A stretch of DNA of 64,000 bases from sequence record PQ758395; one strand, 5' to 3'. The DNA comes from Escherichia phage phita32. Under the pieces are notes generated by a model that saw only the letters and a list, made by a program, of their open reading frames with translations, had not been told where the DNA came from and made no database searches. Positions within the stretch are counted from its first letter, which is position 1, and each line of letters opens with the position of its first letter. Below, piece by piece: positions 34,410 through 49,568 of this stretch. The position numbers were made by a program, and so were the translations under genes.

Positions 34410-34466
34410 TAAGATGTGAGTCTAAAGGGGAGGCACCCTCCCCAAAAACTAAGGAAGCACTAAACG

Positions 34467-34769
34467 ATGAAACGTTATAAACCATACACTTTTGAAATCG
34501 ATTTCGAACTTGACGATATGTTTACTGTGGAAGCTCAGGCAGTTGTCCAGTTGCCAGACCCGGAGTGCCGTGATTCTGATGTTGACTATTATGGATTTAG
34601 GCAGATCACTGATGTGCATGTTTACCACAACGGCGAAGAGATTGACTTCCACCAACTGCCAAACGCTGTGCGCCACTCAATTTACAAACGTGCAGCCCGT
34701 GAACTAGAGTCCTATCTGGATGCAGCGACGACAGCAGCTGCATTTGCTGAAGAAGTGGGAGGTTTCTGA
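34467..34769 (+). CDS. Hypothetical protein (100 aa)
   Basis: ORF with RBS-like AGGAAG. Confidence 0.35.
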   Translation: MKRYKPYTFEIDFELDDMFTVEAQAVVQLPDPECRDSDVDYYGFRQITDVHVYHNGEEIDFHQLPNAVRHSIYKRAARELESYLDAATTAAAFAEEVGGF

Positions 34770-38601: not shown

Positions 38602-41031
38602 ATGAGTATGTGGTCTTTCGATCTGGAGGCCTCCGGGCTTTTGGAAGATCTAGATCTTTATTATCACTGCGGTCTGTTTAAAGAGCTGAATAAGAACCGT
38701 TTTATGCTGTTCCTTCCTCTAAATGACCGCACACACTACTCCAAGGAGGATATAGAGAAGGCCAAGAACTTTATTCTGGCAAAGAAAACTCTTTATAAAG
38801 ATTTTGAAGTCCGCATAGCAGATTTTTCGGAGTTGGAAGGTTGGCTTACAGGCAATTCCGACTGGTCACCAACAGCTTTGAACTGCCATAACTGCTACAG
38901 TTATGACTTTATGCTGATGGAGAGATTATCCGGTATTCATTTTGATATGTTCCGTGATCCTAAATGCATGGGGACTATCAACGACCACCAGGTTAATCTG
39001 TTTGATACGTTGGCGATGAGCCGAATCTTGTGGCCTGATCGCCCTTTACCAAAAGGTTGTCCGGACTCTGTATTCAACCCGGTTACTAAGAAAATGCAGC
39101 CTGTTGGTCCTCACGGCCTTATGGCATGGGGCTACGCCCTTGGTAACCAGAAAGTTCAAATTGATGACTGGCGCGATCTTCCGTTGTGGAAGTATGTGGA
39201 TCGTGTATTCGAGGACGTTATCATCCAGGAGCTGCTCTGGAAAGAGCTGGTAGCGGAATCAAAAGGTGTATTCTACGGCAAATCTGACATGCAGAACTTT
39301 ATGTATGATCCTGCCAAAGAGAAGCCGAAAGGGTTCAAGAAGATCACCTGGAAGAACGCATTACGTCGAGGCATGCTGCAGCACTTCCTGATGGAGCTGC
39401 AGGCCCGTCAGGGTGTATACTTCGACATAGATGGAGCTATTGCTTTACGTGACCGTTGCGATGCGTGGATGAAAGAAATCGCTGATCGTGTTGAACCACA
39501 ACTACCTTTAAAAGAGCTGTCAATGTCTCAGCGGCCCAAGTTCCCTGAAAAGCCGTTTAACCAAGACGGGACAATCTCTAATAATGGTTGGAAATGGTTA
39601 AAAGATAAGCTTGGCTATCCTGTAGACATGAGCGCTTTAGAGTTCAAAGCCCCGCCTAAGCGAGCATTTACCTCTACAGGGGATGTCAGCAAGATGGGGA
39701 TAAAATGGTGTGAAGAGATGGGCTGCAAAGACCCCGATAAGATGGCTGATTTCTTGAGAGGCTATATTAAGGGTACCTCCACACCACAACCTTTACCTAA
39801 AGAGCTAATGGATCAGGCAATAAGTGATCTGCAGCAGAAGCGAATGCCTGACTGCAAGATACCTATGAAAATCGGCAATCAGGACGACATCAAGCGATAC
39901 CTAATCAGTGCTGGTTGGCTCCCAACAATGTGGAGAACTAAAGATGTAACTAAAGACAGCAAGAAGAAAGCTTTACCTGATGCAGATGTTGATGCACGAG
40001 TATATGCATACATGGACGAGCTTTTAGAGTCAGAGTATTGTGACCTGATTATCAACTTCTGGAACAAAACTGATGCTAAGTTTCAGACAACCGTGCACAA
40101 GTTCCGAAGCTTTCCTAACTCCGAAAGGATTAAAAAGGAAGTGTTCGGGAAAATACGTAGAAAAGCCAGGGCACTTATTACTTCTCCGCAACTGAAAGAT
40201 ACGTTTGGACACCTATGCCCAAATCTTGAAAAATTGAACGGAGAGATGGCTAAAGATATCGTCTTGTGGTTATCATTGCGAAACCGCAGATCGGTCCTTG
40301 ATCCAATCAAGGAGGATAAGGTTGATACTGGTCTTCTTAATCACCCACGTTTGAAGATTGACCATAAGCTTCCTGCTAAAAGCTCTGGATTAACAAACAC
40401 TTCCAGACAGAAACACAGTATTTGTGCAAACATGCCTAAACCATCTCCTAAAGTGGTTATGGGTAAAGAGATGCGTAGTCTGTGGGGTGTTCCTCCAGGA
40501 TACTTTGAGATCGGTATTGACGGGTCCAACTTAGAGCAGCTTATCGGGGCTTGGGGTGCCTTTGAGTTCGACAACGGCTTGTATTATGATGTTGTAAGTA
40601 ACGGAGACGCACACCAAAACAATGCTGAGGCATATACAAAAGTAGCAGGCAGAGAGGTGTCCCGTAACGACGGTAAACCTATCACGTATGGGGTTATGTA
40701 CGGGGCACAAAAAGATAAAGTTGCAGATATGCTGGACATCTCTCCAGAGTTGGGACAAAGGGTAATCGATGCACTCTGGGATGCCAACCCAGGTCTTAAG
40801 GGGCGCAAAGAGGATCTGGAGAAATTCTGGGAAGCAACAGGTAAGAAGTTTATCTACTCTTTTGATGGTCATGCTATCTGGACCAGATCTAAACACTCTT
40901 TACTTAATGCATACCAACAAAATGGCGGTGCATCGTTGTGTGACTTAGTTGGAATACTCATGCACCACCAGATGGTGAAGCGTGGGTGGTACGATGAAGG
41001 TGTTCGTCGTATTATTTATTACCATAAATAA
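38602..41031 (+). CDS. DNA polymerase, family A (with 3'-5' exonuclease domain)
   Basis: N-terminal FDLEASGL (exo motif I); polymerase motif A region IGIDGSNLEQL; motif B region KPITYGVMYGAQ; AAGGAGA RBS. Confidence 0.65.
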   Translation: MSMWSFDLEASGLLEDLDLYYHCGLFKELNKNRFMLFLPLNDRTHYSKEDIEKAKNFILAKKTLYKDFEVRIADFSELEGWLTGNSDWSPTALNCHNCYSYDFMLMERLSGIHFDMFRDPKCMGTINDHQVNLFDTLAMSRILWPDRPLPKGCPDSVFNPVTKKMQPVGPHGLMAWGYALGNQKVQIDDWRDLPLWKYVDRVFEDVIIQELLWKELVAESKGVFYGKSDMQNFMYDPAKEKPKGFKKITWKNALRRGMLQHFLMELQARQGVYFDIDGAIALRDRCDAWMKEIADRVEPQLPLKELSMSQRPKFPEKPFNQDGTISNNGWKWLKDKLGYPVDMSALEFKAPPKRAFTSTGDVSKMGIKWCEEMGCKDPDKMADFLRGYIKGTSTPQPLPKELMDQAISDLQQKRMPDCKIPMKIGNQDDIKRYLISAGWLPTMWRTKDVTKDSKKKALPDADVDARVYAYMDELLESEYCDLIINFWNKTDAKFQTTVHKFRSFPNSERIKKEVFGKIRRKARALITSPQLKDTFGHLCPNLEKLNGEMAKDIVLWLSLRNRRSVLDPIKEDKVDTGLLNHPRLKIDHKLPAKSSGLTNTSRQKHSICANMPKPSPKVVMGKEMRSLWGVPPGYFEIGIDGSNLEQLIGAWGAFEFDNGLYYDVVSNGDAHQNNAEAYTKVAGREVSRNDGKPITYGVMYGAQKDKVADMLDISPELGQRVIDALWDANPGLKGRKEDLEKFWEATGKKFIYSFDGHAIWTRSKHSLLNAYQQNGGASLCDLVGILMHHQMVKRGWYDEGVRRIIYYHK

Positions 41032-41298
41032 CATTGTGGCTTCATAGAGTAATCTATGTCGAATAACCTCTTTAACTGCGGGAAGCCTAAACCTTATGGC
41101 AAGGTAATCCGCAACGAAGCGCTCAAAAGAGCGAACGCTCAGAGGCCATTCCGAAAGGAAGTAGACCAGCAAGTGCGGTCGAAATGGGAGGATTCCTGTG
41201 GTTGCTTATTATAGGAATATGAGATGGTCCGATCCTACGTGAAAACGTATGGCTATGCACGTAATGGTGCGGGGTAGCTTAACGACCTACCTGAACTA

Positions 41299-41655
41299 TT
41301 GGATGAGTACCAACTTCAAGTGCCTGACACACCGAAGTATAAGACTGTGTACACCTTCGACACAATTGAAGAACTGGAAGCATTTAAGGCAGAGCAGGAA
41401 GCCAAACTTCATGTGTTCGACGGTCATAAGTACAAAAAGGCACGCAAGGATGAGGACGGAAACGAAGTGGTTGACAGAGACGGAAACACGGTGTACGATC
41501 CTATCCTGAACGATGACGGAAAGCTTGAACTTATCTGGAGCCCTGTGGGTGAAATGGTGGTGCATTGCTTCTGGCAAGCTTCTAAAATGATGGGAGTCCC
41601 GTTCCAGATCACAGGTGAATACTTGTGTGGGGCTAATTGGGGTAGTTGCCATTGA
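41299..41655 (+). CDS. Hypothetical protein (118 aa)
   Basis: ORF (TTG start in track, no clear RBS); overlapped by alternative ORFs on both strands. Confidence 0.3.
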   Translation: MDEYQLQVPDTPKYKTVYTFDTIEELEAFKAEQEAKLHVFDGHKYKKARKDEDGNEVVDRDGNTVYDPILNDDGKLELIWSPVGEMVVHCFWQASKMMGVPFQITGEYLCGANWGSCH

Positions 41656-41666
41656 TCTGATAAGAG

Positions 41667-42323
41667 ATGTTTGCTATGGAAGAATGGAGAAAACTGGTTG
41701 GCAAGGAGGCCAACTATGAAGTTAGCAGCAAAGGAAGGATTAAAAGGCTGTCTTACCTGAGGAAGTACAGTAACCAAACAGGTAAAGTTACTTTCAAAGC
41801 TGTCCCTGACAGGATTTTAAAAGGTAGCGTAGACAGTAGCGGTTACATTCAAGTAAATGTGGATGGAAGATCGGAATTGCTTCACAGGTTAATTGCCGAG
41901 ACCTTTCTAGAGCCTCCTTCAAAAGAGCTTGTAGAGGAATGTAAGGCAGCAGGGCTGGACTATGTACCGATTAATCATAAAGACCATAACCGCCTAAACA
42001 ATGCTGCTGACAACCTTGAATGGGCCTCGCCTTCAAAAAATGCACAAGATGTGGACTACGATTACTGTAAAACAAGAGGTGAAAATTCATACTGTGCAAA
42101 ACTTAAAGAGCGAGATGTTGACGAAATATTAAAGCTTTCCAAAACAGGTATGTCGCAGCAAGCTATAGCAGATCTTTTCGGTGTTAATCAGATAACCATT
42201 TCCAATATCTTGACAGGAAGGAGTTGGGCATGGTACACTGGGATACCTAAAACCGCAAGGTGTAAAAACAAAAGGAAGAGATCCCCAAAAAGCATGTCCG
42301 AGCAAAATTTCTCGGTAAGCTGA
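41667..42323 (+). CDS. HNH homing endonuclease (NUMOD4 + HNH_3 + C-terminal HTH)
   Basis: EEWRKLVGKEANYEVSSKGRIKR (NUMOD4-like); INHKDHNRLNNAADNLEWASPSKN (HNH); C-terminal MSQQAIADLFGVNQITISNIL (HTH). Confidence 0.65.
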   Translation: MFAMEEWRKLVGKEANYEVSSKGRIKRLSYLRKYSNQTGKVTFKAVPDRILKGSVDSSGYIQVNVDGRSELLHRLIAETFLEPPSKELVEECKAAGLDYVPINHKDHNRLNNAADNLEWASPSKNAQDVDYDYCKTRGENSYCAKLKERDVDEILKLSKTGMSQQAIADLFGVNQITISNILTGRSWAWYTGIPKTARCKNKRKRSPKSMSEQNFSVS

Positions 42324-47390: not shown

Positions 47391-47420
47391 GCCCTGCCCG
47401 AAAGGGTGGGGCATTTTTGT
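47391..47420 (+). terminator. Intrinsic terminator, identical hairpin to 35666
   Basis: GCCCTGCCC-GAAA-GGGTGGGGC followed by ATTTTTGT. Confidence 0.6.
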
Positions 47421-47437: not shown

Positions 47438-47653
47438 ATGACATTAGAAGATATCATTGTTAAACCTGAGAACTATGACCAATACAACCTGTCAACTCAA
47501 TCTGTAGGCCTCGGATGCGCCACAGTCAGTGCATGGCTGGTTAACGGAAAAGAGCTTGACGAGTGCCTGGAAGCACACATGTCGGTGAATAAATTTCTTG
47601 ATGAAAATACCCACTGGCTGGAGGGTGCAGGAGTATATGCTTCATGGTTGTAG
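47438..47653 (+). CDS. Hypothetical protein (71 aa)
   Basis: AAGGAGA RBS. Confidence 0.4.
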   Translation: MTLEDIIVKPENYDQYNLSTQSVGLGCATVSAWLVNGKELDECLEAHMSVNKFLDENTHWLEGAGVYASWL

Positions 47654-47656
47654 AGT

Positions 47657-47854
47657 ATGGGATTCGACTACCAATCTGAAGAGGGGTGGTGGAGCTATTT
47701 AGCTATCTGCCCAGAGACGCTGCAATGCTTCATGAAATATTCTGAAGATTTGGAGTACCGGGCGGTGGTTGATAGTGCTATTGCCCGTTATAGCCGTAAA
47801 CCTTTTTCCCACGACATTAAAACTGTGGAAGAGTTTGTTGAAGTTTTCTGTTGA
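47657..47854 (+). CDS. Hypothetical protein (65 aa)
   Basis: ORF, co-oriented. Confidence 0.3.
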   Translation: MGFDYQSEEGWWSYLAICPETLQCFMKYSEDLEYRAVVDSAIARYSRKPFSHDIKTVEEFVEVFC

Positions 47855-48216: not shown

Positions 48217-48642
48217 ATGATCTATGAAATGCCAAAACTGATTCGTGACGATGCCCAAAACGCTCACACCATTATTATGGGCAAACGCATGGATATTATT
48301 TGTCATAAAGATTTCTGGGAAGGAAGTTACTTCACAGAGTATTTTGGTAAACTGGACAATGGTCTGCTGATCCAGTTCTACACCGATGCGGAAAACAATA
48401 TCTGCTGGGAGTTCGAAACTGAAGATATCCATAAACTTTTCACCTTCCTCGGTATTAAGGTTGAGGCCAAGTTTGAAGAAGGTGAGTGCGACGATTGTGG
48501 ATTCTACGAGGTAACAGATTTCTACCTCCCGAGCGGTGAGAACCTTTACTATGAAAGCCACTTCGGTAACTCCAATATGCCACAGTGCTGGACTGAGTTT
48601 TTTGAAATTGCGGAAGAGGAGCTGGCATACCGTGATTATTGA
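48217..48642 (+). CDS. Hypothetical acidic protein (141 aa)
   Basis: ORF with GGAG RBS. Confidence 0.35.
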   Translation: MIYEMPKLIRDDAQNAHTIIMGKRMDIICHKDFWEGSYFTEYFGKLDNGLLIQFYTDAENNICWEFETEDIHKLFTFLGIKVEAKFEEGECDDCGFYEVTDFYLPSGENLYYESHFGNSNMPQCWTEFFEIAEEELAYRDY

Positions 48643-49090
48643 TACTGTAGGGGGAGATCTAATCTCTCTTTTCAAGAAAGGGTCGGGCCACATGATCCAC
48701 GGTTGTAACTGCTTTCACACAATGGGTGCAGGCATAGCGAAAGACATTGCCCGTGAGTTCCCTCAAGCACTGGCAGCCGACAAAGAGACTGCTTATGGTA
48801 ATCTAGACAAGCTGGGTATGTTTTCTTGTTGGGAGCATTTTGCCAAGAACAGGGTCGTATATGGAATCAACCTGTATACCCAGTTCTACCCAGGGCCCAA
48901 TGCTGAATACTTCTCAATCATGAAAGGTTTTGAGCGAGTCAACGAGGTATTCAAAGGTGTGTCATTGCCGTTCTACATTCCTAAAATCGGATGCGGTATT
49001 GGCGGTCTAAAGTGGGAACATGTAGAAGATGTAATTAATCTTGCAACCACAGATATTGATGTGGTTGTAGTAGAGTACAAAAAGTGTTGA
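48632..49090 (+). CDS. Macro-domain-like protein (about 152 aa)
   Basis: GTG at 48632 after GAGGAG RBS (the track ATG at 48536 overlaps the upstream gene); motifs MIHGCNCFHTMGAGIAKDIA and IGCGIGGLKW resemble ADP-ribose-binding macro domains. Confidence 0.45.
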   Translation: MIIDTVGGDLISLFKKGSGHMIHGCNCFHTMGAGIAKDIAREFPQALAADKETAYGNLDKLGMFSCWEHFAKNRVVYGINLYTQFYPGPNAEYFSIMKGFERVNEVFKGVSLPFYIPKIGCGIGGLKWEHVEDVINLATTDIDVVVVEYKKC

Positions 49091-49144: not shown

Positions 49145-49315
49145 GTGGAGACTAAAATCTTAATTCTTGCTGTGGTAGATACAACCGAAGGAGCTATATT
49201 CGAATCTGCAGGAGGGTATTTCTACCTACCATACGGAAAAAGAACTTCCGAGCCAAGTAAAGATTCAATCCTCAAAGTGTTCCCGTGTGCTTTCTGGCTG
49301 GAGATTTTGGTATAA
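49145..49315 (+). CDS. Hypothetical small protein (56 aa)
   Basis: GTG start after GAGGAG RBS downstream of the promoter; not in the ORF track (below cut-off). Confidence 0.25.
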   Translation: METKILILAVVDTTEGAIFESAGGYFYLPYGKRTSEPSKDSILKVFPCAFWLEILV

Positions 49316-49341
49316 GATTGCAGAGGATTTGGGAGAGAATT

Positions 49342-49536
49342 ATGAGAAACAAGAAAGAGCTTTACTCTGGTGAGTGGATCAACGATCAACAGGTGGGAGA
49401 GGTAACCTGCTTCCGATGTTTTACCAGGTACAATCTTAAAACTGCACCAAAAAGTGTTCCAAAGACTGATGGTTATTACATAAAAGAACCTCATTGCCCA
49501 AAATGTAAATGCCGATTATACTGGAGTAACCTGTAA
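49342..49536 (+). CDS. Small zinc-ribbon protein (about 64 aa)
   Basis: ATG at 49342 after GGGAGA RBS; CFRC...CPKCKC pairs. Confidence 0.4.
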   Translation: MRNKKELYSGEWINDQQVGEVTCFRCFTRYNLKTAPKSVPKTDGYYIKEPHCPKCKCRLYWSNL

Positions 49537-49540
49537 AAGA

Positions 49541-49568
49541 TTGACATCTGAAAACTGCAGTGTATAAT
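49541..49568 (+). promoter_or_regulatory. Consensus sigma70 promoter (TTGACA-N16-TATAAT)
   Basis: Perfect -35 and -10 hexamers. Confidence 0.6.

What the first reader, a model, noticed from the sequence alone, without database searches (positions are those of the whole stretch)
48632..49090. Macro-domain-like protein in the replication module
The sequence HGCNCFHTMGAGIAKDIA...GCGIGGLKW resembles ADP-ribose-binding macro domains. Phage macro domains can reverse ADP-ribosylation or degrade ADP-ribose-derived signals, so this is a candidate counter-defence or NAD-metabolism enzyme. The start is probably a GTG overlapping the upstream stop.
Basis: partly seen in the sequence, partly recalled or inferred. 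Interest (0 to 1): 0.5.

Follow-up and report, generated by a model that had tools for sequence, protein, structure and literature searches.

The report
Phage macrodomain, likely anti-DarT enzyme
This is a real, already annotated 152-residue macrodomain gene of an rV5-like E. coli phage; its T4 counterpart (Tk.4/AdfM) lets T4 escape the DarTG2 defence, which blocks phage replication by attaching ADP-ribose to DNA, so the finding is correct but ordinary.

Summary
Window 48632-49090 (+) encodes a 152-aa macrodomain protein that starts at a GTG overlapping the upstream stop codon by 11 nt. It scores above the Pfam Macro threshold, hits PHROG 335 at 1e-59, and gives an AlphaFold model (pLDDT 94.9) whose best PDB matches are TARG1, DarG, Poa1p and SCO6735.

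The window is a Vequintavirus (rV5-like E. coli phage). The same protein, at 97-99% identity, is already annotated in GenBank as "Tk.4", "macro domain protein" or "phosphatase".

It is 69% identical to the Tk.4 of RB49-like phages, which sits at the same map position as T4 Tk.4, and 39% identical to T4 Tk.4 itself. A 2025 preprint renamed T4 Tk.4 AdfM because deleting it makes T4 sensitive to DarTG2.

The catalytic lysine of DarG and TARG1 is replaced by an invariant glutamine (Gln84, held by Asn26). SCO6735 has the same arrangement and is proven to remove ADP-ribose from thymidine in DNA.

Most likely function (confidence about 0.6): a stand-alone DNA de-ADP-ribosylase that undoes DarT2 damage. 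This is untested for this phage group. A role on small ADP-ribose derivatives or on protein or RNA targets is not excluded.

Novelty: already known. Interest is low.

The parts
48632..49090 (+). Coding sequence of the 152-aa macrodomain protein (GTG start, TGA stop). It is the homologue of rV5 gp204 'tk.4' and of T4 Tk.4/AdfM.
   Evidence: Translation. Pfam Macro above its gathering score. PHROG 335 at 1.2e-59. 97-99% identity to annotated Vequintavirus genes. AF2 model with pLDDT 94.9. Foldseek top hits are TARG1, DarG, Poa1p and SCO6735.
48614..48621 (+). Shine-Dalgarno-like AAGAGGAG, 10 nt upstream of the GTG start.
   Evidence: Read directly from the sequence. Function is inferred.
48632..48642 (+). 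11-nt overlap (GTGATTATTGA) between the macrodomain start and the end of the upstream ORF. It suggests translational coupling.
   Evidence: Sequence. The same overlap is annotated in rV5 and A51.2. Coupling itself is inferred.
48698..48739 (+). Substrate-binding loop 1, HGCNCFHTMGAGIA (residues 23-36). It contains invariant Asn26, which matches DarG Asn22, SCO6735 Asn27 and PhiKZ AdfM Asn23, and near-invariant His23.
   Evidence: Column counts over 79 homologues. HMMER alignments to DarG, SCO6735 and TARG1. Mutagenesis of the equivalent residues is reported in PMC5179494, PMC9411070 and PMC13309987.
48869..48883 (+). Invariant N-x-Y-T-Q motif (residues 80-84). Gln84 occupies the position of the catalytic Lys80 of DarG and Lys84 of TARG1, and matches the essential Gln85 of SCO6735.
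   Evidence: 79 of 79 homologues have N80, Y82, T83 and Q84. Profile alignments place Q on the DarG and TARG1 lysine and on the SCO6735 glutamine. SCO6735 Q85A is inactive (PMC9411070).
48980..49006 (+). Glycine-rich phosphate-binding loop PKIGCGIGG (residues 117-125). Gly122 matches SCO6735 Gly128, and Gly124 stands where TARG1 has Asp125.
   Evidence: Invariant P117, G120 and G122. Alignments.
48217..48642 (+). Upstream 141-aa ORF (rV5 gp205 homologue, phrog_8157, function unknown) whose stop codon overlaps the macrodomain start.
   Evidence: No Pfam or PADLOC hit. Nothing shows that it works with the macrodomain.
49342..49536 (+). Downstream 64-aa zinc-binding protein (Pfam PF23903 Phage_zn_bind_2). 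Its gene follows tk.4 directly in RB49-like phages.
   Evidence: Pfam 80.5 bits. 77-78% identity to the Krischvirus gene that overlaps the end of tk.4. A functional link is speculative.
47391..47412 (+). Terminator-like GC-rich hairpin followed by a T-run, after the HNH endonuclease gene. It is the probable upstream limit of the transcription unit that holds the macrodomain gene.
   Evidence: Pattern scan. This is a consensus match only.
49541..49568 (+). Perfect sigma-70 consensus promoter (TTGACA-16-TATAAT) that starts the next unit downstream. It corresponds to rV5 promoter P205.
   Evidence: Pattern scan. rV5 annotation.

Best explanation
The gene encodes a stand-alone, single-domain macrodomain ADP-ribosylhydrolase of the TARG1/ALC1-like class. 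It is the Vequintavirus counterpart of T4 Tk.4 (AdfM).

Proposed role, inferred by homology:
- The protein is made during infection from the block of small genes that has sigma-70-type promoters.
- It binds ADP-ribose attached to thymidine in single-stranded phage DNA by the host toxin DarT2 (the DarTG2 defence).
- It hydrolyses the ribose-base bond, releasing free ADP-ribose and restoring replicable DNA.

Proposed chemistry, inferred from SCO6735: catalysis does not use the lysine of DarG or TARG1. Invariant Gln84, held in place by invariant Asn26, positions the distal ribose. The glycine-rich loops (MGAGIA and PKIGCGIGG) grip the diphosphate.

Shown here: the gene, its fold, its class, its active-site residues and its homology to Tk.4. 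Inferred: substrate, timing of expression and biological role.
For: Fold and class:
- Pfam Macro above threshold. AF2 pLDDT 94.9.
- The best PDB folds are TARG1, DarG (three species), Poa1p and SCO6735, at E = 6e-10 to 6e-7.
- The family profile hits the same set at 3e-14 to 1e-9.
- The DarG models of NCBIfam and PADLOC match the macro part only.

Link to Tk.4:
- 39% identity over the full length to T4 Tk.4, E = 1e-43.
- Same PHROG 335.
- 69% identity to Krischvirus Tk.4, which lies between vs and tk as in T4 and is 45% identical to T4 Tk.4.

Function of relatives:
- A T4 tk.4 knockout becomes sensitive to DarTG2 (bioRxiv 10.1101/2025.11.20.689424).
- PhiKZ gp104, in the same PHROG, removes DarT2-made ADP-ribose from DNA in vitro (PMC13309987).
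- SCO6735 has the same Asn/Gln/Gly constellation. It cleaves thymidine-linked ADP-ribose, rescues cells from DarT, and is inactivated by Q85A and N27S (PMC9411070).

Conservation: N26, T83, Q84, G120 and G122 are invariant in 79 homologues.
Against: - Nothing has been tested for any Vequintavirus protein.
- The T4 evidence is genetic and comes from a preprint. It includes no biochemistry on a phage enzyme of the glutamine type.
- Identity to T4 Tk.4 is only 39%, and macrodomain specificity can shift at that distance.
- Some SCO6735 features tied to DNA handling are absent. Lys34 corresponds to Ala33, Val25 to Gly24, and the long mobile loop carrying Lys89/Lys94 is missing.
- Two of the four listed Poa1p catalytic residues are identical here (His23, Asn26). 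Ser30 is Thr30 and Gly33 is Ala33. A small-molecule substrate therefore remains possible.
- Bacterial homologues are orphans with no DarT gene nearby. This gives no contextual support.
Confidence: 0.6

Rival explanations
1. It hydrolyses small ADP-ribose derivatives at the 1'' position, such as ADP-ribose-1''-phosphate or O-acetyl-ADP-ribose, as yeast Poa1p does. This would clean up by-products or feed ADP-ribose into NAD recycling. This idea is the origin of the 'phosphatase' label in RefSeq and PHROGs.
For: - Poa1p is among the best sequence and fold matches.
- Poa1p residues His23 and Asn26 are conserved, and Ser30 is Thr30.
- The PHROG 335 and RefSeq product name is 'phosphatase'.
- The T4 note says 'contains A1pp phosphatase motif'.
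Against: - These substrates are not known in bacteria (PMC12846349).
- No NAD-salvage, Nudix or 2H gene was found among the 40 window ORFs scanned.
- The only phenotype known for the family is anti-DarTG2.
- Poa1p Gly33 is Ala33 here.
Confidence: 0.12
2. It removes ADP-ribose from proteins or RNA rather than DNA. It would counter other ADP-ribosylating defences (for example CmdT-type mRNA modification) or tune ADP-ribosylation carried out by the phage itself.
For: - TARG1 and SCO6735, the closest characterised folds, also act on protein substrates (PMC9411070).
- TARG1 acts on some RNA and DNA phosphate-linked ADP-ribose (PMC11833690).
Against: - SCO6735 was inactive on 2'-OH-linked RNA ADP-ribosylation. 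The same paper gives conflicting statements on its activity on phosphate-linked ADP-ribose (PMC11833690).
- No ADP-ribosyltransferase was detected in the scanned part of the window.
- The T4 transposon screen found tk.4 as the single hit specifically under DarTG2.
Confidence: 0.13
3. It destroys or sequesters ADP-ribose-derived immune signals, such as the cyclic ADP-ribose isomers of Thoeris.
For: Comparative-genomics papers predict that some phage macrodomains target soluble ADP-ribose derivatives (PMC9503650).
Against: - No member of this clade has shown such an activity.
- The closest characterised relatives all cleave 1''-linked conjugates.
- This was not testable here.
Confidence: 0.05
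4. It acts mainly without catalysis, by binding and blocking DarT, or only as an ADP-ribose reader. Its lack of the catalytic lysine prompts this idea.
For: - Lys80 of DarG and Lys84 of TARG1 is Gln here.
- Catalytically dead SCO6735 still inhibits DarT in vitro (PMC9411070).
Against: - The Gln is itself essential for catalysis in SCO6735.
- Strict invariance of N26, T83, Q84 and the glycine loops across 79 homologues points to an enzyme.
- The protein lacks the DarT-binding C-terminal domain of DarG.
Confidence: 0.05

Closest known systems
T4 Tk.4 = AdfM (anti-DarT factor macrodomain), with its positional orthologues in RB49-like Krischvirus phages
   Same: - Single-domain protein of about 150 aa, in the same PHROG 335.
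- 39% identity to T4 Tk.4 and 69% to Krischvirus Tk.4 over the full length.
- The same signature motifs: HGCNCFHTMG.G.A, NLYTQF.PGPN.EY and P.IG.GIG.
- Non-essential accessory gene.
   Different: - Different genomic neighbourhood. No T4 tk-vs neighbour has a homologue here. Only the small zinc-binding gene is shared, and that is with Krischvirus.
- The anti-DarTG2 phenotype has been shown only for T4.
Streptomyces coelicolor SCO6735 (PDB 5E3B) and Bacteroides BT1257 (PDB 2FG1/2AFC)
   Same: - The same class of fold.
- The same lysine-free active site: His, Asn, Gln and the loop Gly (H23, N26, Q84 and G122 here; H24, N27, Q85 and G128 in SCO6735).
- Orphan gene with no partner toxin.
   Different: - About 22% identity.
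- The phage clade has Gly24 where SCO6735 has Val25.
- It lacks the five-to-six-residue longer mobile loop with Lys89/Lys94, and it lacks Lys34.
- It carries a clade-specific invariant Asp50.
DarG macrodomain, the antitoxin of DarTG2 (PDB 5M31, 5M3E, 5M3I, 7OMU)
   Same: - Fold (TM-score 0.74-0.78).
- ADP-ribose-contacting positions: DarG Asn22, Thr79 and the glycine loop match N26, T83 and G120-G124 here.
- Presumed substrate.
   Different: - No C-terminal DarT-binding domain and no adjacent darT gene.
- The catalytic Lys80 is replaced by Gln84.
- 44.5 bits against a 250-bit equivalog cut-off.
PhiKZ gp104 AdfM (chimallivirus DarG2-like macrodomain)
   Same: - Same PHROG 335.
- Stand-alone phage macrodomain.
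- Conserved catalytic-site Asn.
- DNA de-ADP-ribosylation has been demonstrated for it.
   Different: - Only 22% identity.
- It keeps the DarG-type FPTK lysine.
- It is imported into a phage nucleus, which Vequintaviruses do not build.
Human TARG1/OARD1 (PDB 4J5S)
   Same: Best Foldseek match (E = 6e-10, TM-score 0.75-0.81). It shares the P-[KR]-I-G-C-G loop, and it also reverses thymidine ADP-ribosylation.
   Different: The catalytic dyad Lys84/Asp125 corresponds to Gln84/Gly124 here.
Yeast Poa1p, ADP-ribose-1''-phosphate phosphatase (PDB 6LFQ-6LFU)
   Same: The H-x-C-N-C motif with His23 and Asn26, and a similar fold.
   Different: Poa1p is about 25 residues longer. Ser30 is Thr and Gly33 is Ala here. 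Its substrates are not known in bacteria.

Membership tests
Macro domain superfamily (Pfam PF01661) | Profile score at or above the curated gathering score | tested here: met
   25.9 bits against a cut-off of 22, E = 1e-5. Most homologues carry precomputed PF01661.
Macro domain superfamily (Pfam PF01661) | Three-layer alpha/beta/alpha fold with a mixed central sheet | tested here: met
   AF2 pLDDT 94.9 and pTM 0.90, with six strands and five helices. The listed PDB matches are natural macrodomains or serine hydrolases computationally designed by NESG.
Macro domain superfamily (Pfam PF01661) | The two ADP-ribose-binding loops: G-x-G after strand 2 and a glycine-rich diphosphate loop | tested here: met
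   M31-G32-A33-G34 and P117-K-I-G120-C-G122-I-G-G125 are invariant or nearly so in 79 homologues.
Macro domain superfamily (Pfam PF01661) | Binding of ADP-ribose | not testable with these tools
   Needs ITC or a co-crystal structure.
T4 Tk.4 / AdfM family (PHROG 335, Tk.4 clade) | Full-length homology to T4 Tk.4, with the same single-domain architecture | tested here: met
   39% identity, E = 1e-43, residues 1-150 against 1-152. Both hit PHROG 335 positions 54-205. 69% identity to the positional orthologue in Krischvirus.
T4 Tk.4 / AdfM family (PHROG 335, Tk.4 clade) | Protection of the phage against DarTG2 | not testable with these tools
   Shown only for T4. No paper on this topic for Vequintavirinae was found.
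SCO6735-type (glutamine-type) thymidine-ADP-ribose DNA hydrolases | Gln at the position of the DarG/TARG1 catalytic Lys, with the Asn that holds it and the loop Gly (SCO6735 Gln85, Asn27, Gly128) | tested here: met
   Q84, N26 and G122 are invariant in 79 of 79 homologues and aligned by HMMER to SCO6735 Q85, N27 and G128. Their roles are described in PMC9411070.
SCO6735-type (glutamine-type) thymidine-ADP-ribose DNA hydrolases | Val/Ile25 and the extended mobile loop with Lys89/Lys94, stated to be specific to SCO6735 | tested here: not met
   Gly24 is invariant at the Val25 position. SCO6735 and BT1257 have a 5-6 residue insertion after the Gln relative to the phage profile.
SCO6735-type (glutamine-type) thymidine-ADP-ribose DNA hydrolases | Hydrolysis of thymidine-linked ADP-ribose on ssDNA | not testable with these tools
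   Needs a gel-shift assay on a DarT2-modified oligonucleotide.
DarG antitoxin (NCBIfam NF048014, PADLOC DarG) | Equivalog score at or above the cut-off, and the two-domain architecture with a C-terminal DarT-binding domain | tested here: not met
   44.5 bits against a cut-off of 250. Only profile positions 8-144 of 338, and 9-143 of 329, are matched.
DarG antitoxin (NCBIfam NF048014, PADLOC DarG) | Catalytic lysine (Taq DarG Lys80) | tested here: not met
   Gln84 aligns with the lysine of FPTK. The role of K80 is described in PMC5179494.
DarG antitoxin (NCBIfam NF048014, PADLOC DarG) | Adjacent darT toxin gene | tested here: not met
   The ten neighbouring ORFs have no Pfam hit and match only phage families of unknown function or an endonuclease.
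TARG1/OARD1 | Catalytic dyad Lys84/Asp125 | tested here: not met
   The profile alignment puts Gln84 on Lys84 and Gly124 on Asp125.
Poa1p-like ADP-ribose-1''-phosphatase | Catalytic residues His23, Asn26, Ser30 and Gly33, as listed in PMC12846349 citing Chiu et al. 2021 | tested here: inconclusive
   His23 and Asn26 are present. Ser30 is Thr30 and Gly33 is Ala33. Activity was not tested.

The most novel reading that the evidence does not exclude
The Tk.4 clade of phage macrodomains may be a mechanistically distinct, lysine-free subfamily. Its clade-specific invariant Asp50 is absent from DarG, TARG1 and SCO6735 and could take part in catalysis or substrate choice. If so, the Vequintavirus enzyme may have a different or broader substrate range than DarT2-modified thymidine, for example RNA or protein ADP-ribosylation made by other defence systems. 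It may also work together with the co-inherited 64-aa zinc-binding protein at 49342-49536.
Probability: 0.15. Interest if true: 0.5.

Novelty: already known. Interest (0 to 1): 0.2.

Why it matters
DarTG systems stop phages by ADP-ribosylating their DNA, and orphan antitoxin-like enzymes are how large lytic phages escape. If the rV5-type protein is an active AdfM, Vequintaviruses would be predicted to resist DarTG2. These phages are broad-host-range and candidates for therapy, so the gene would be a useful marker when matching phages to clinical strains.

The protein also gives a compact example, with many natural sequence variants, of the lysine-free glutamine-type active site. That active site has so far been studied in only one bacterial enzyme. 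None of this changes current understanding. It extends a recently described family to one more phage group.

Tried and rejected
- **Alternative starts.** The longest ORF (GTG at 48536) would overlap the upstream gene by 107 nt and add 32 residues that no homologue has. The ATG at 48692 would remove a confident first beta-strand. Both were rejected.
- **Membership in DarG proper.** Rejected on score, architecture, catalytic lysine and gene context.
- **TARG1-type Lys/Asp chemistry.** Rejected.
- **Conserved neighbours with T4.** BLASTP of 11 window ORFs against the T4 region from rI.1 to vs.1 found only the macrodomain pair.
- **Context of bacterial homologues.** P0050 lies among housekeeping genes. 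P0119 lies among unknown ORFs and ankyrin-repeat genes on a 648-kb contig. Neither has a DarT gene nearby, so this was uninformative.
- **Isoelectric point as a hint of DNA binding.** Uninformative. The window protein has pI 6.2 and T4 Tk.4 5.9, but the proven DNA enzyme PhiKZ gp104 has 5.05.
- **Other NAD or ADP-ribose genes in the window.** Pfam found no ADP-ribosyltransferase, NADAR, Nudix, sirtuin or NAD-salvage domain. It was run on 20 larger ORFs (at least 150 aa), on ten neighbouring ORFs and on the 64-aa ORF at 49342. Many of the other small ORFs were not scanned.
- **Erwinia jumbo-phage neighbours of the zinc-binding gene.** I tested whether they are macrodomains. They are not, and one is Acb1.
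- **Bas54 gene-level data.** The supplement of the HIDEN-SEQ preprint had no searchable 'macro' entry for this Vequintavirus.
- **Position of Asp50.** I could not measure its distance to the active site, because model coordinates are not exposed.
Full report
**What is in the sequence.** On the + strand, 48632-49090 translates to a 152-residue protein followed by a stop codon.

The mechanical ORF list starts this frame at a GTG at 48536, but the biological start is the GTG at 48632:
- It is preceded by AAGAGGAG ten bases upstream, and it overlaps the TGA of the upstream 141-aa ORF by 11 nt.
- Exactly these boundaries are annotated in phage rV5 (gp204, gene name tk.4) and in phage A51.2 ("macro domain protein").
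- The first nine residues align with the N-termini of T4 Tk.4 and Krischvirus Tk.4.
- Residues 2-8 are a confident beta-strand in the predicted structure.

**Where the window comes from.** A tblastn search of the phage collection finds 2,740 records with a homologue. The best, at 97-99% identity, are Vequintavirus (rV5-like) E. coli phages. The window is collinear with rV5 at 95-97% nucleotide identity over most of the region, falling to about 88% downstream of the macrodomain gene. The gene is therefore a known, annotated gene of a known phage group. GenBank names for it include "Tk.4 conserved hypothetical protein", "macro domain protein" and "phosphatase".

**Fold and family.**
- Pfam Macro scores 25.9 bits against a gathering score of 22.
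- PHROG 335 ("phosphatase") scores E = 1.2e-59.
- The DarG models of NCBIfam and PADLOC match at about 1e-12, but only over their macrodomain half and far below the equivalog cut-off.
- An AlphaFold2 model built on 79 homologues has mean pLDDT 94.9 and pTM 0.90.
- Foldseek against the PDB returns TARG1, the DarG macrodomains of three species, yeast Poa1p and SCO6735 as best matches (E = 6e-10 to 6e-7, TM-score 0.70-0.81). Viral MacroD-type domains rank lower.
- A profile of the family finds the same set by sequence, at 3e-14 to 1e-9.

The protein is thus a macrodomain of the TARG1/ALC1-like class, not of the MacroD class.

**Active site.** In 79 homologues down to about 36% identity, G24, N26, M31, G34, A36, D50, N80, Y82, T83, Q84, P117, G120 and G122 never vary, and H23 varies once.

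The HMMER profile alignments give the following correspondences:
- Gln84 sits on the catalytic lysine of DarG (Lys80, FPTK) and of TARG1 (Lys84).
- Gly124 sits on TARG1 Asp125.
- Gln84 sits on Gln85 of SCO6735, Asn26 on its Asn27, His23 on its His24, and Gly122 on its Gly128.

DarG K80A is inactive (PMC5179494), so this protein cannot work as DarG does. SCO6735 also lacks the lysine, yet it removes thymidine-linked ADP-ribose from DNA efficiently and protects cells from DarT. Its Q85A, Q85E and N27S mutants lose all or nearly all activity (PMC9411070).

The phage clade shares that constellation but differs from SCO6735 in three ways. Val25 is an invariant Gly here. The longer lysine-bearing mobile loop and Lys34 are absent. 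An invariant Asp50 is present that none of the solved relatives has. I could not place Asp50 relative to the pocket.

**What relatives do.** T4 Tk.4 is 39% identical over its whole length (E = 1e-43) and falls in the same PHROG. The Tk.4 of RB49-like Krischvirus phages lies between vs and tk, as in T4. It is 45% identical to T4 Tk.4 and 69% identical to the window protein, which bridges the two.

In a 2025 preprint, a transposon screen of T4 on a DarTG2 host gave tk.4 as the single hit. A clean knockout became sensitive to DarTG2. The gene was renamed adfM (anti-DarT factor macrodomain), with enzymatic removal of ADP-ribose from DNA proposed but not assayed (bioRxiv 10.1101/2025.11.20.689424). 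tk.4 is dispensable in standard culture.

Independently, PhiKZ gp104 was shown in vitro to remove DarT2-made ADP-ribose from DNA and to neutralise DarT2 in cells (PMC13309987). It is also called AdfM and is in the same PHROG. It is only 22% identical to the window protein and keeps the DarG-type lysine. No paper on this topic for Vequintavirinae turned up.

**Context.** The DNA polymerase, primase-helicase and PIF1-like helicase lie at about 32.7-41.7 kb on the same strand. The macrodomain gene is about 7.6 kb further on. It sits inside a long array of small ORFs that match only phage families of unknown function, plus one HNH/endonuclease VII-like gene.

A terminator-like hairpin at 47391-47412 and a perfect sigma-70 consensus promoter at 49541-49568 bracket a probable unit. 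This unit holds the split gp207 homologue, gp206, gp205, the macrodomain gene, a 56-aa ORF and a 64-aa zinc-binding ORF. This bracketing is inferred from consensus matches only.

"In the replication module" is therefore only loosely right. The setting resembles an accessory-gene block with sigma-70-type promoters. That would suit a counter-defence gene, but early expression is inferred, not shown. No T4 tk-region neighbour is shared. No ADP-ribosyltransferase, NADAR, Nudix or NAD-salvage domain was found in the 40 ORFs scanned.

**Explanations.**
- *Main explanation (about 0.6).* The protein is a stand-alone DNA ADP-ribosylglycohydrolase that reverses DarT2 modification of thymidine in phage ssDNA, using the glutamine-type active site.
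- *Small-molecule hydrolase (0.12).* A Poa1p-like enzyme acting at the 1'' position. His23 and Asn26 are shared, and this is the origin of the "phosphatase" label.
- *Protein or RNA de-ADP-ribosylase (0.13).*
- *Degrader or sponge of ADP-ribose-derived signals (0.05).*
- *Non-catalytic DarT binder or ADP-ribose reader (0.05).*

The strict invariance of the catalytic-site residues argues for an enzyme. The only phenotype known for the clade argues for DarT2. The absence of any assay on a phage enzyme of the glutamine type is the main weakness.

**Verdict.** The finding is a rediscovery of an annotated gene whose family was assigned a counter-defence role in 2025-2026. What remains open is the untested Vequintavirus orthologue, the lysine-free chemistry and the role of Asp50. 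Interest is low (0.2) and the novelty rating is "already known".

**Seen in passing.**
- A group I intron interrupts the DNA polymerase gene. Rfam RF00028 scores 63.1 bits at 41016-41251, and there is a 276-bp insertion at 41026-41301 relative to the intron-less A51.2 gene.
- A 669-bp insertion absent from rV5 and A51.2 carries a NUMOD4/HNH homing endonuclease directly after the polymerase gene.
- A TAG at 47651-47653 splits the gp207 homologue.
- The rV5 adenine methyltransferase gene and gp202 are missing.
- The 64-aa ORF at 49342-49536 is a Pfam PF23903 zinc-binding protein. Its gene travels with tk.4 in Krischvirus. In an Erwinia jumbo phage it sits between Acb1 and Sir2-like, Nudix and NadV genes.
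- Several GenBank records labelled "Campylobacter phage" are virtually identical to this E. coli phage gene.

Noticed in passing
window 41016-41301 (+): A group I intron lies inside the DNA polymerase gene. Rfam RF00028 scores 63.1 bits (gathering score 50) at 41016-41251. There is an exact 276-bp insertion at 41026-41301 relative to the uninterrupted polymerase gene of phage A51.2. Exon 1 is the ORF 38602-41031, and exon 2 continues to about 41655. The intron is also present in rV5, where the polymerase is annotated in pieces.
   Followed up: yes
window 41652-42323 (+): A 669-bp insertion absent from both rV5 and A51.2 carries a 218-aa ORF with NUMOD4, HNH_3 and HTH domains. This is a free-standing homing endonuclease directly downstream of the DNA polymerase gene.
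   Followed up: yes
window 47438-47854 (+), stop at 47651-47653: The homologue of rV5 gp207 (phrog_8967, 138 aa) is split into 71-aa and 65-aa ORFs by an in-frame TAG. rV5 has GAG and A51.2 has GAT at this codon. This is a nonsense mutation or a sequencing error.
   Followed up: partly
window 49342-49536 (+); L009 2501-2695; L010 2980-3195: This 64-aa CxxC...CxxC protein belongs to Pfam PF23903 (Phage_zn_bind_2). In RB49-like Krischvirus phages its gene overlaps the end of tk.4 by 11 nt and is 77-78% identical. In Erwinia jumbo phage pEa_SNUABM_47 the homologue lies between an Acb1 anti-CBASS gene and Sir2-like, Nudix and NadV genes. It is possibly a recurring companion of anti-defence or NAD-related genes. 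Its function is unknown.
   Followed up: partly
window about 34462-34470: The roughly 1.3-kb adenine methyltransferase gene of rV5 (gp230) and A51.2 is absent from the window at this junction.
   Followed up: no
window 49313-49340: rV5 gp202 (213 nt) is missing. About 206 bp of rV5 correspond to 27 bp here, as in A51.2.
   Followed up: no
window 48779-48781 (Asp50 of the macrodomain protein): Asp50, in an A-D-K motif, is invariant in all 79 Tk.4-clade homologues. SCO6735 has Trp and BT1257 has Tyr at this position, and DarG and TARG1 also lack it. Its role is unexplained, and its distance to the pocket could not be measured.
   Followed up: partly
GenBank MG065646, MG065654, MG065655, MG065658, MG065659, MG065666 (hits): Records named 'Campylobacter phage C2/C5/C7/C15/A12a/D1' carry genes 98-100% identical to this E. 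coli Vequintavirus. The host labels look doubtful.
   Followed up: no
L011 4291-5192 (IMG/VR contig 3300045988_173923): In this relative the zinc-binding gene is 100% identical to the window's, but the adjacent macrodomain gene is only 80% identical. This indicates local mosaicism or recombination within the cassette.
   Followed up: no
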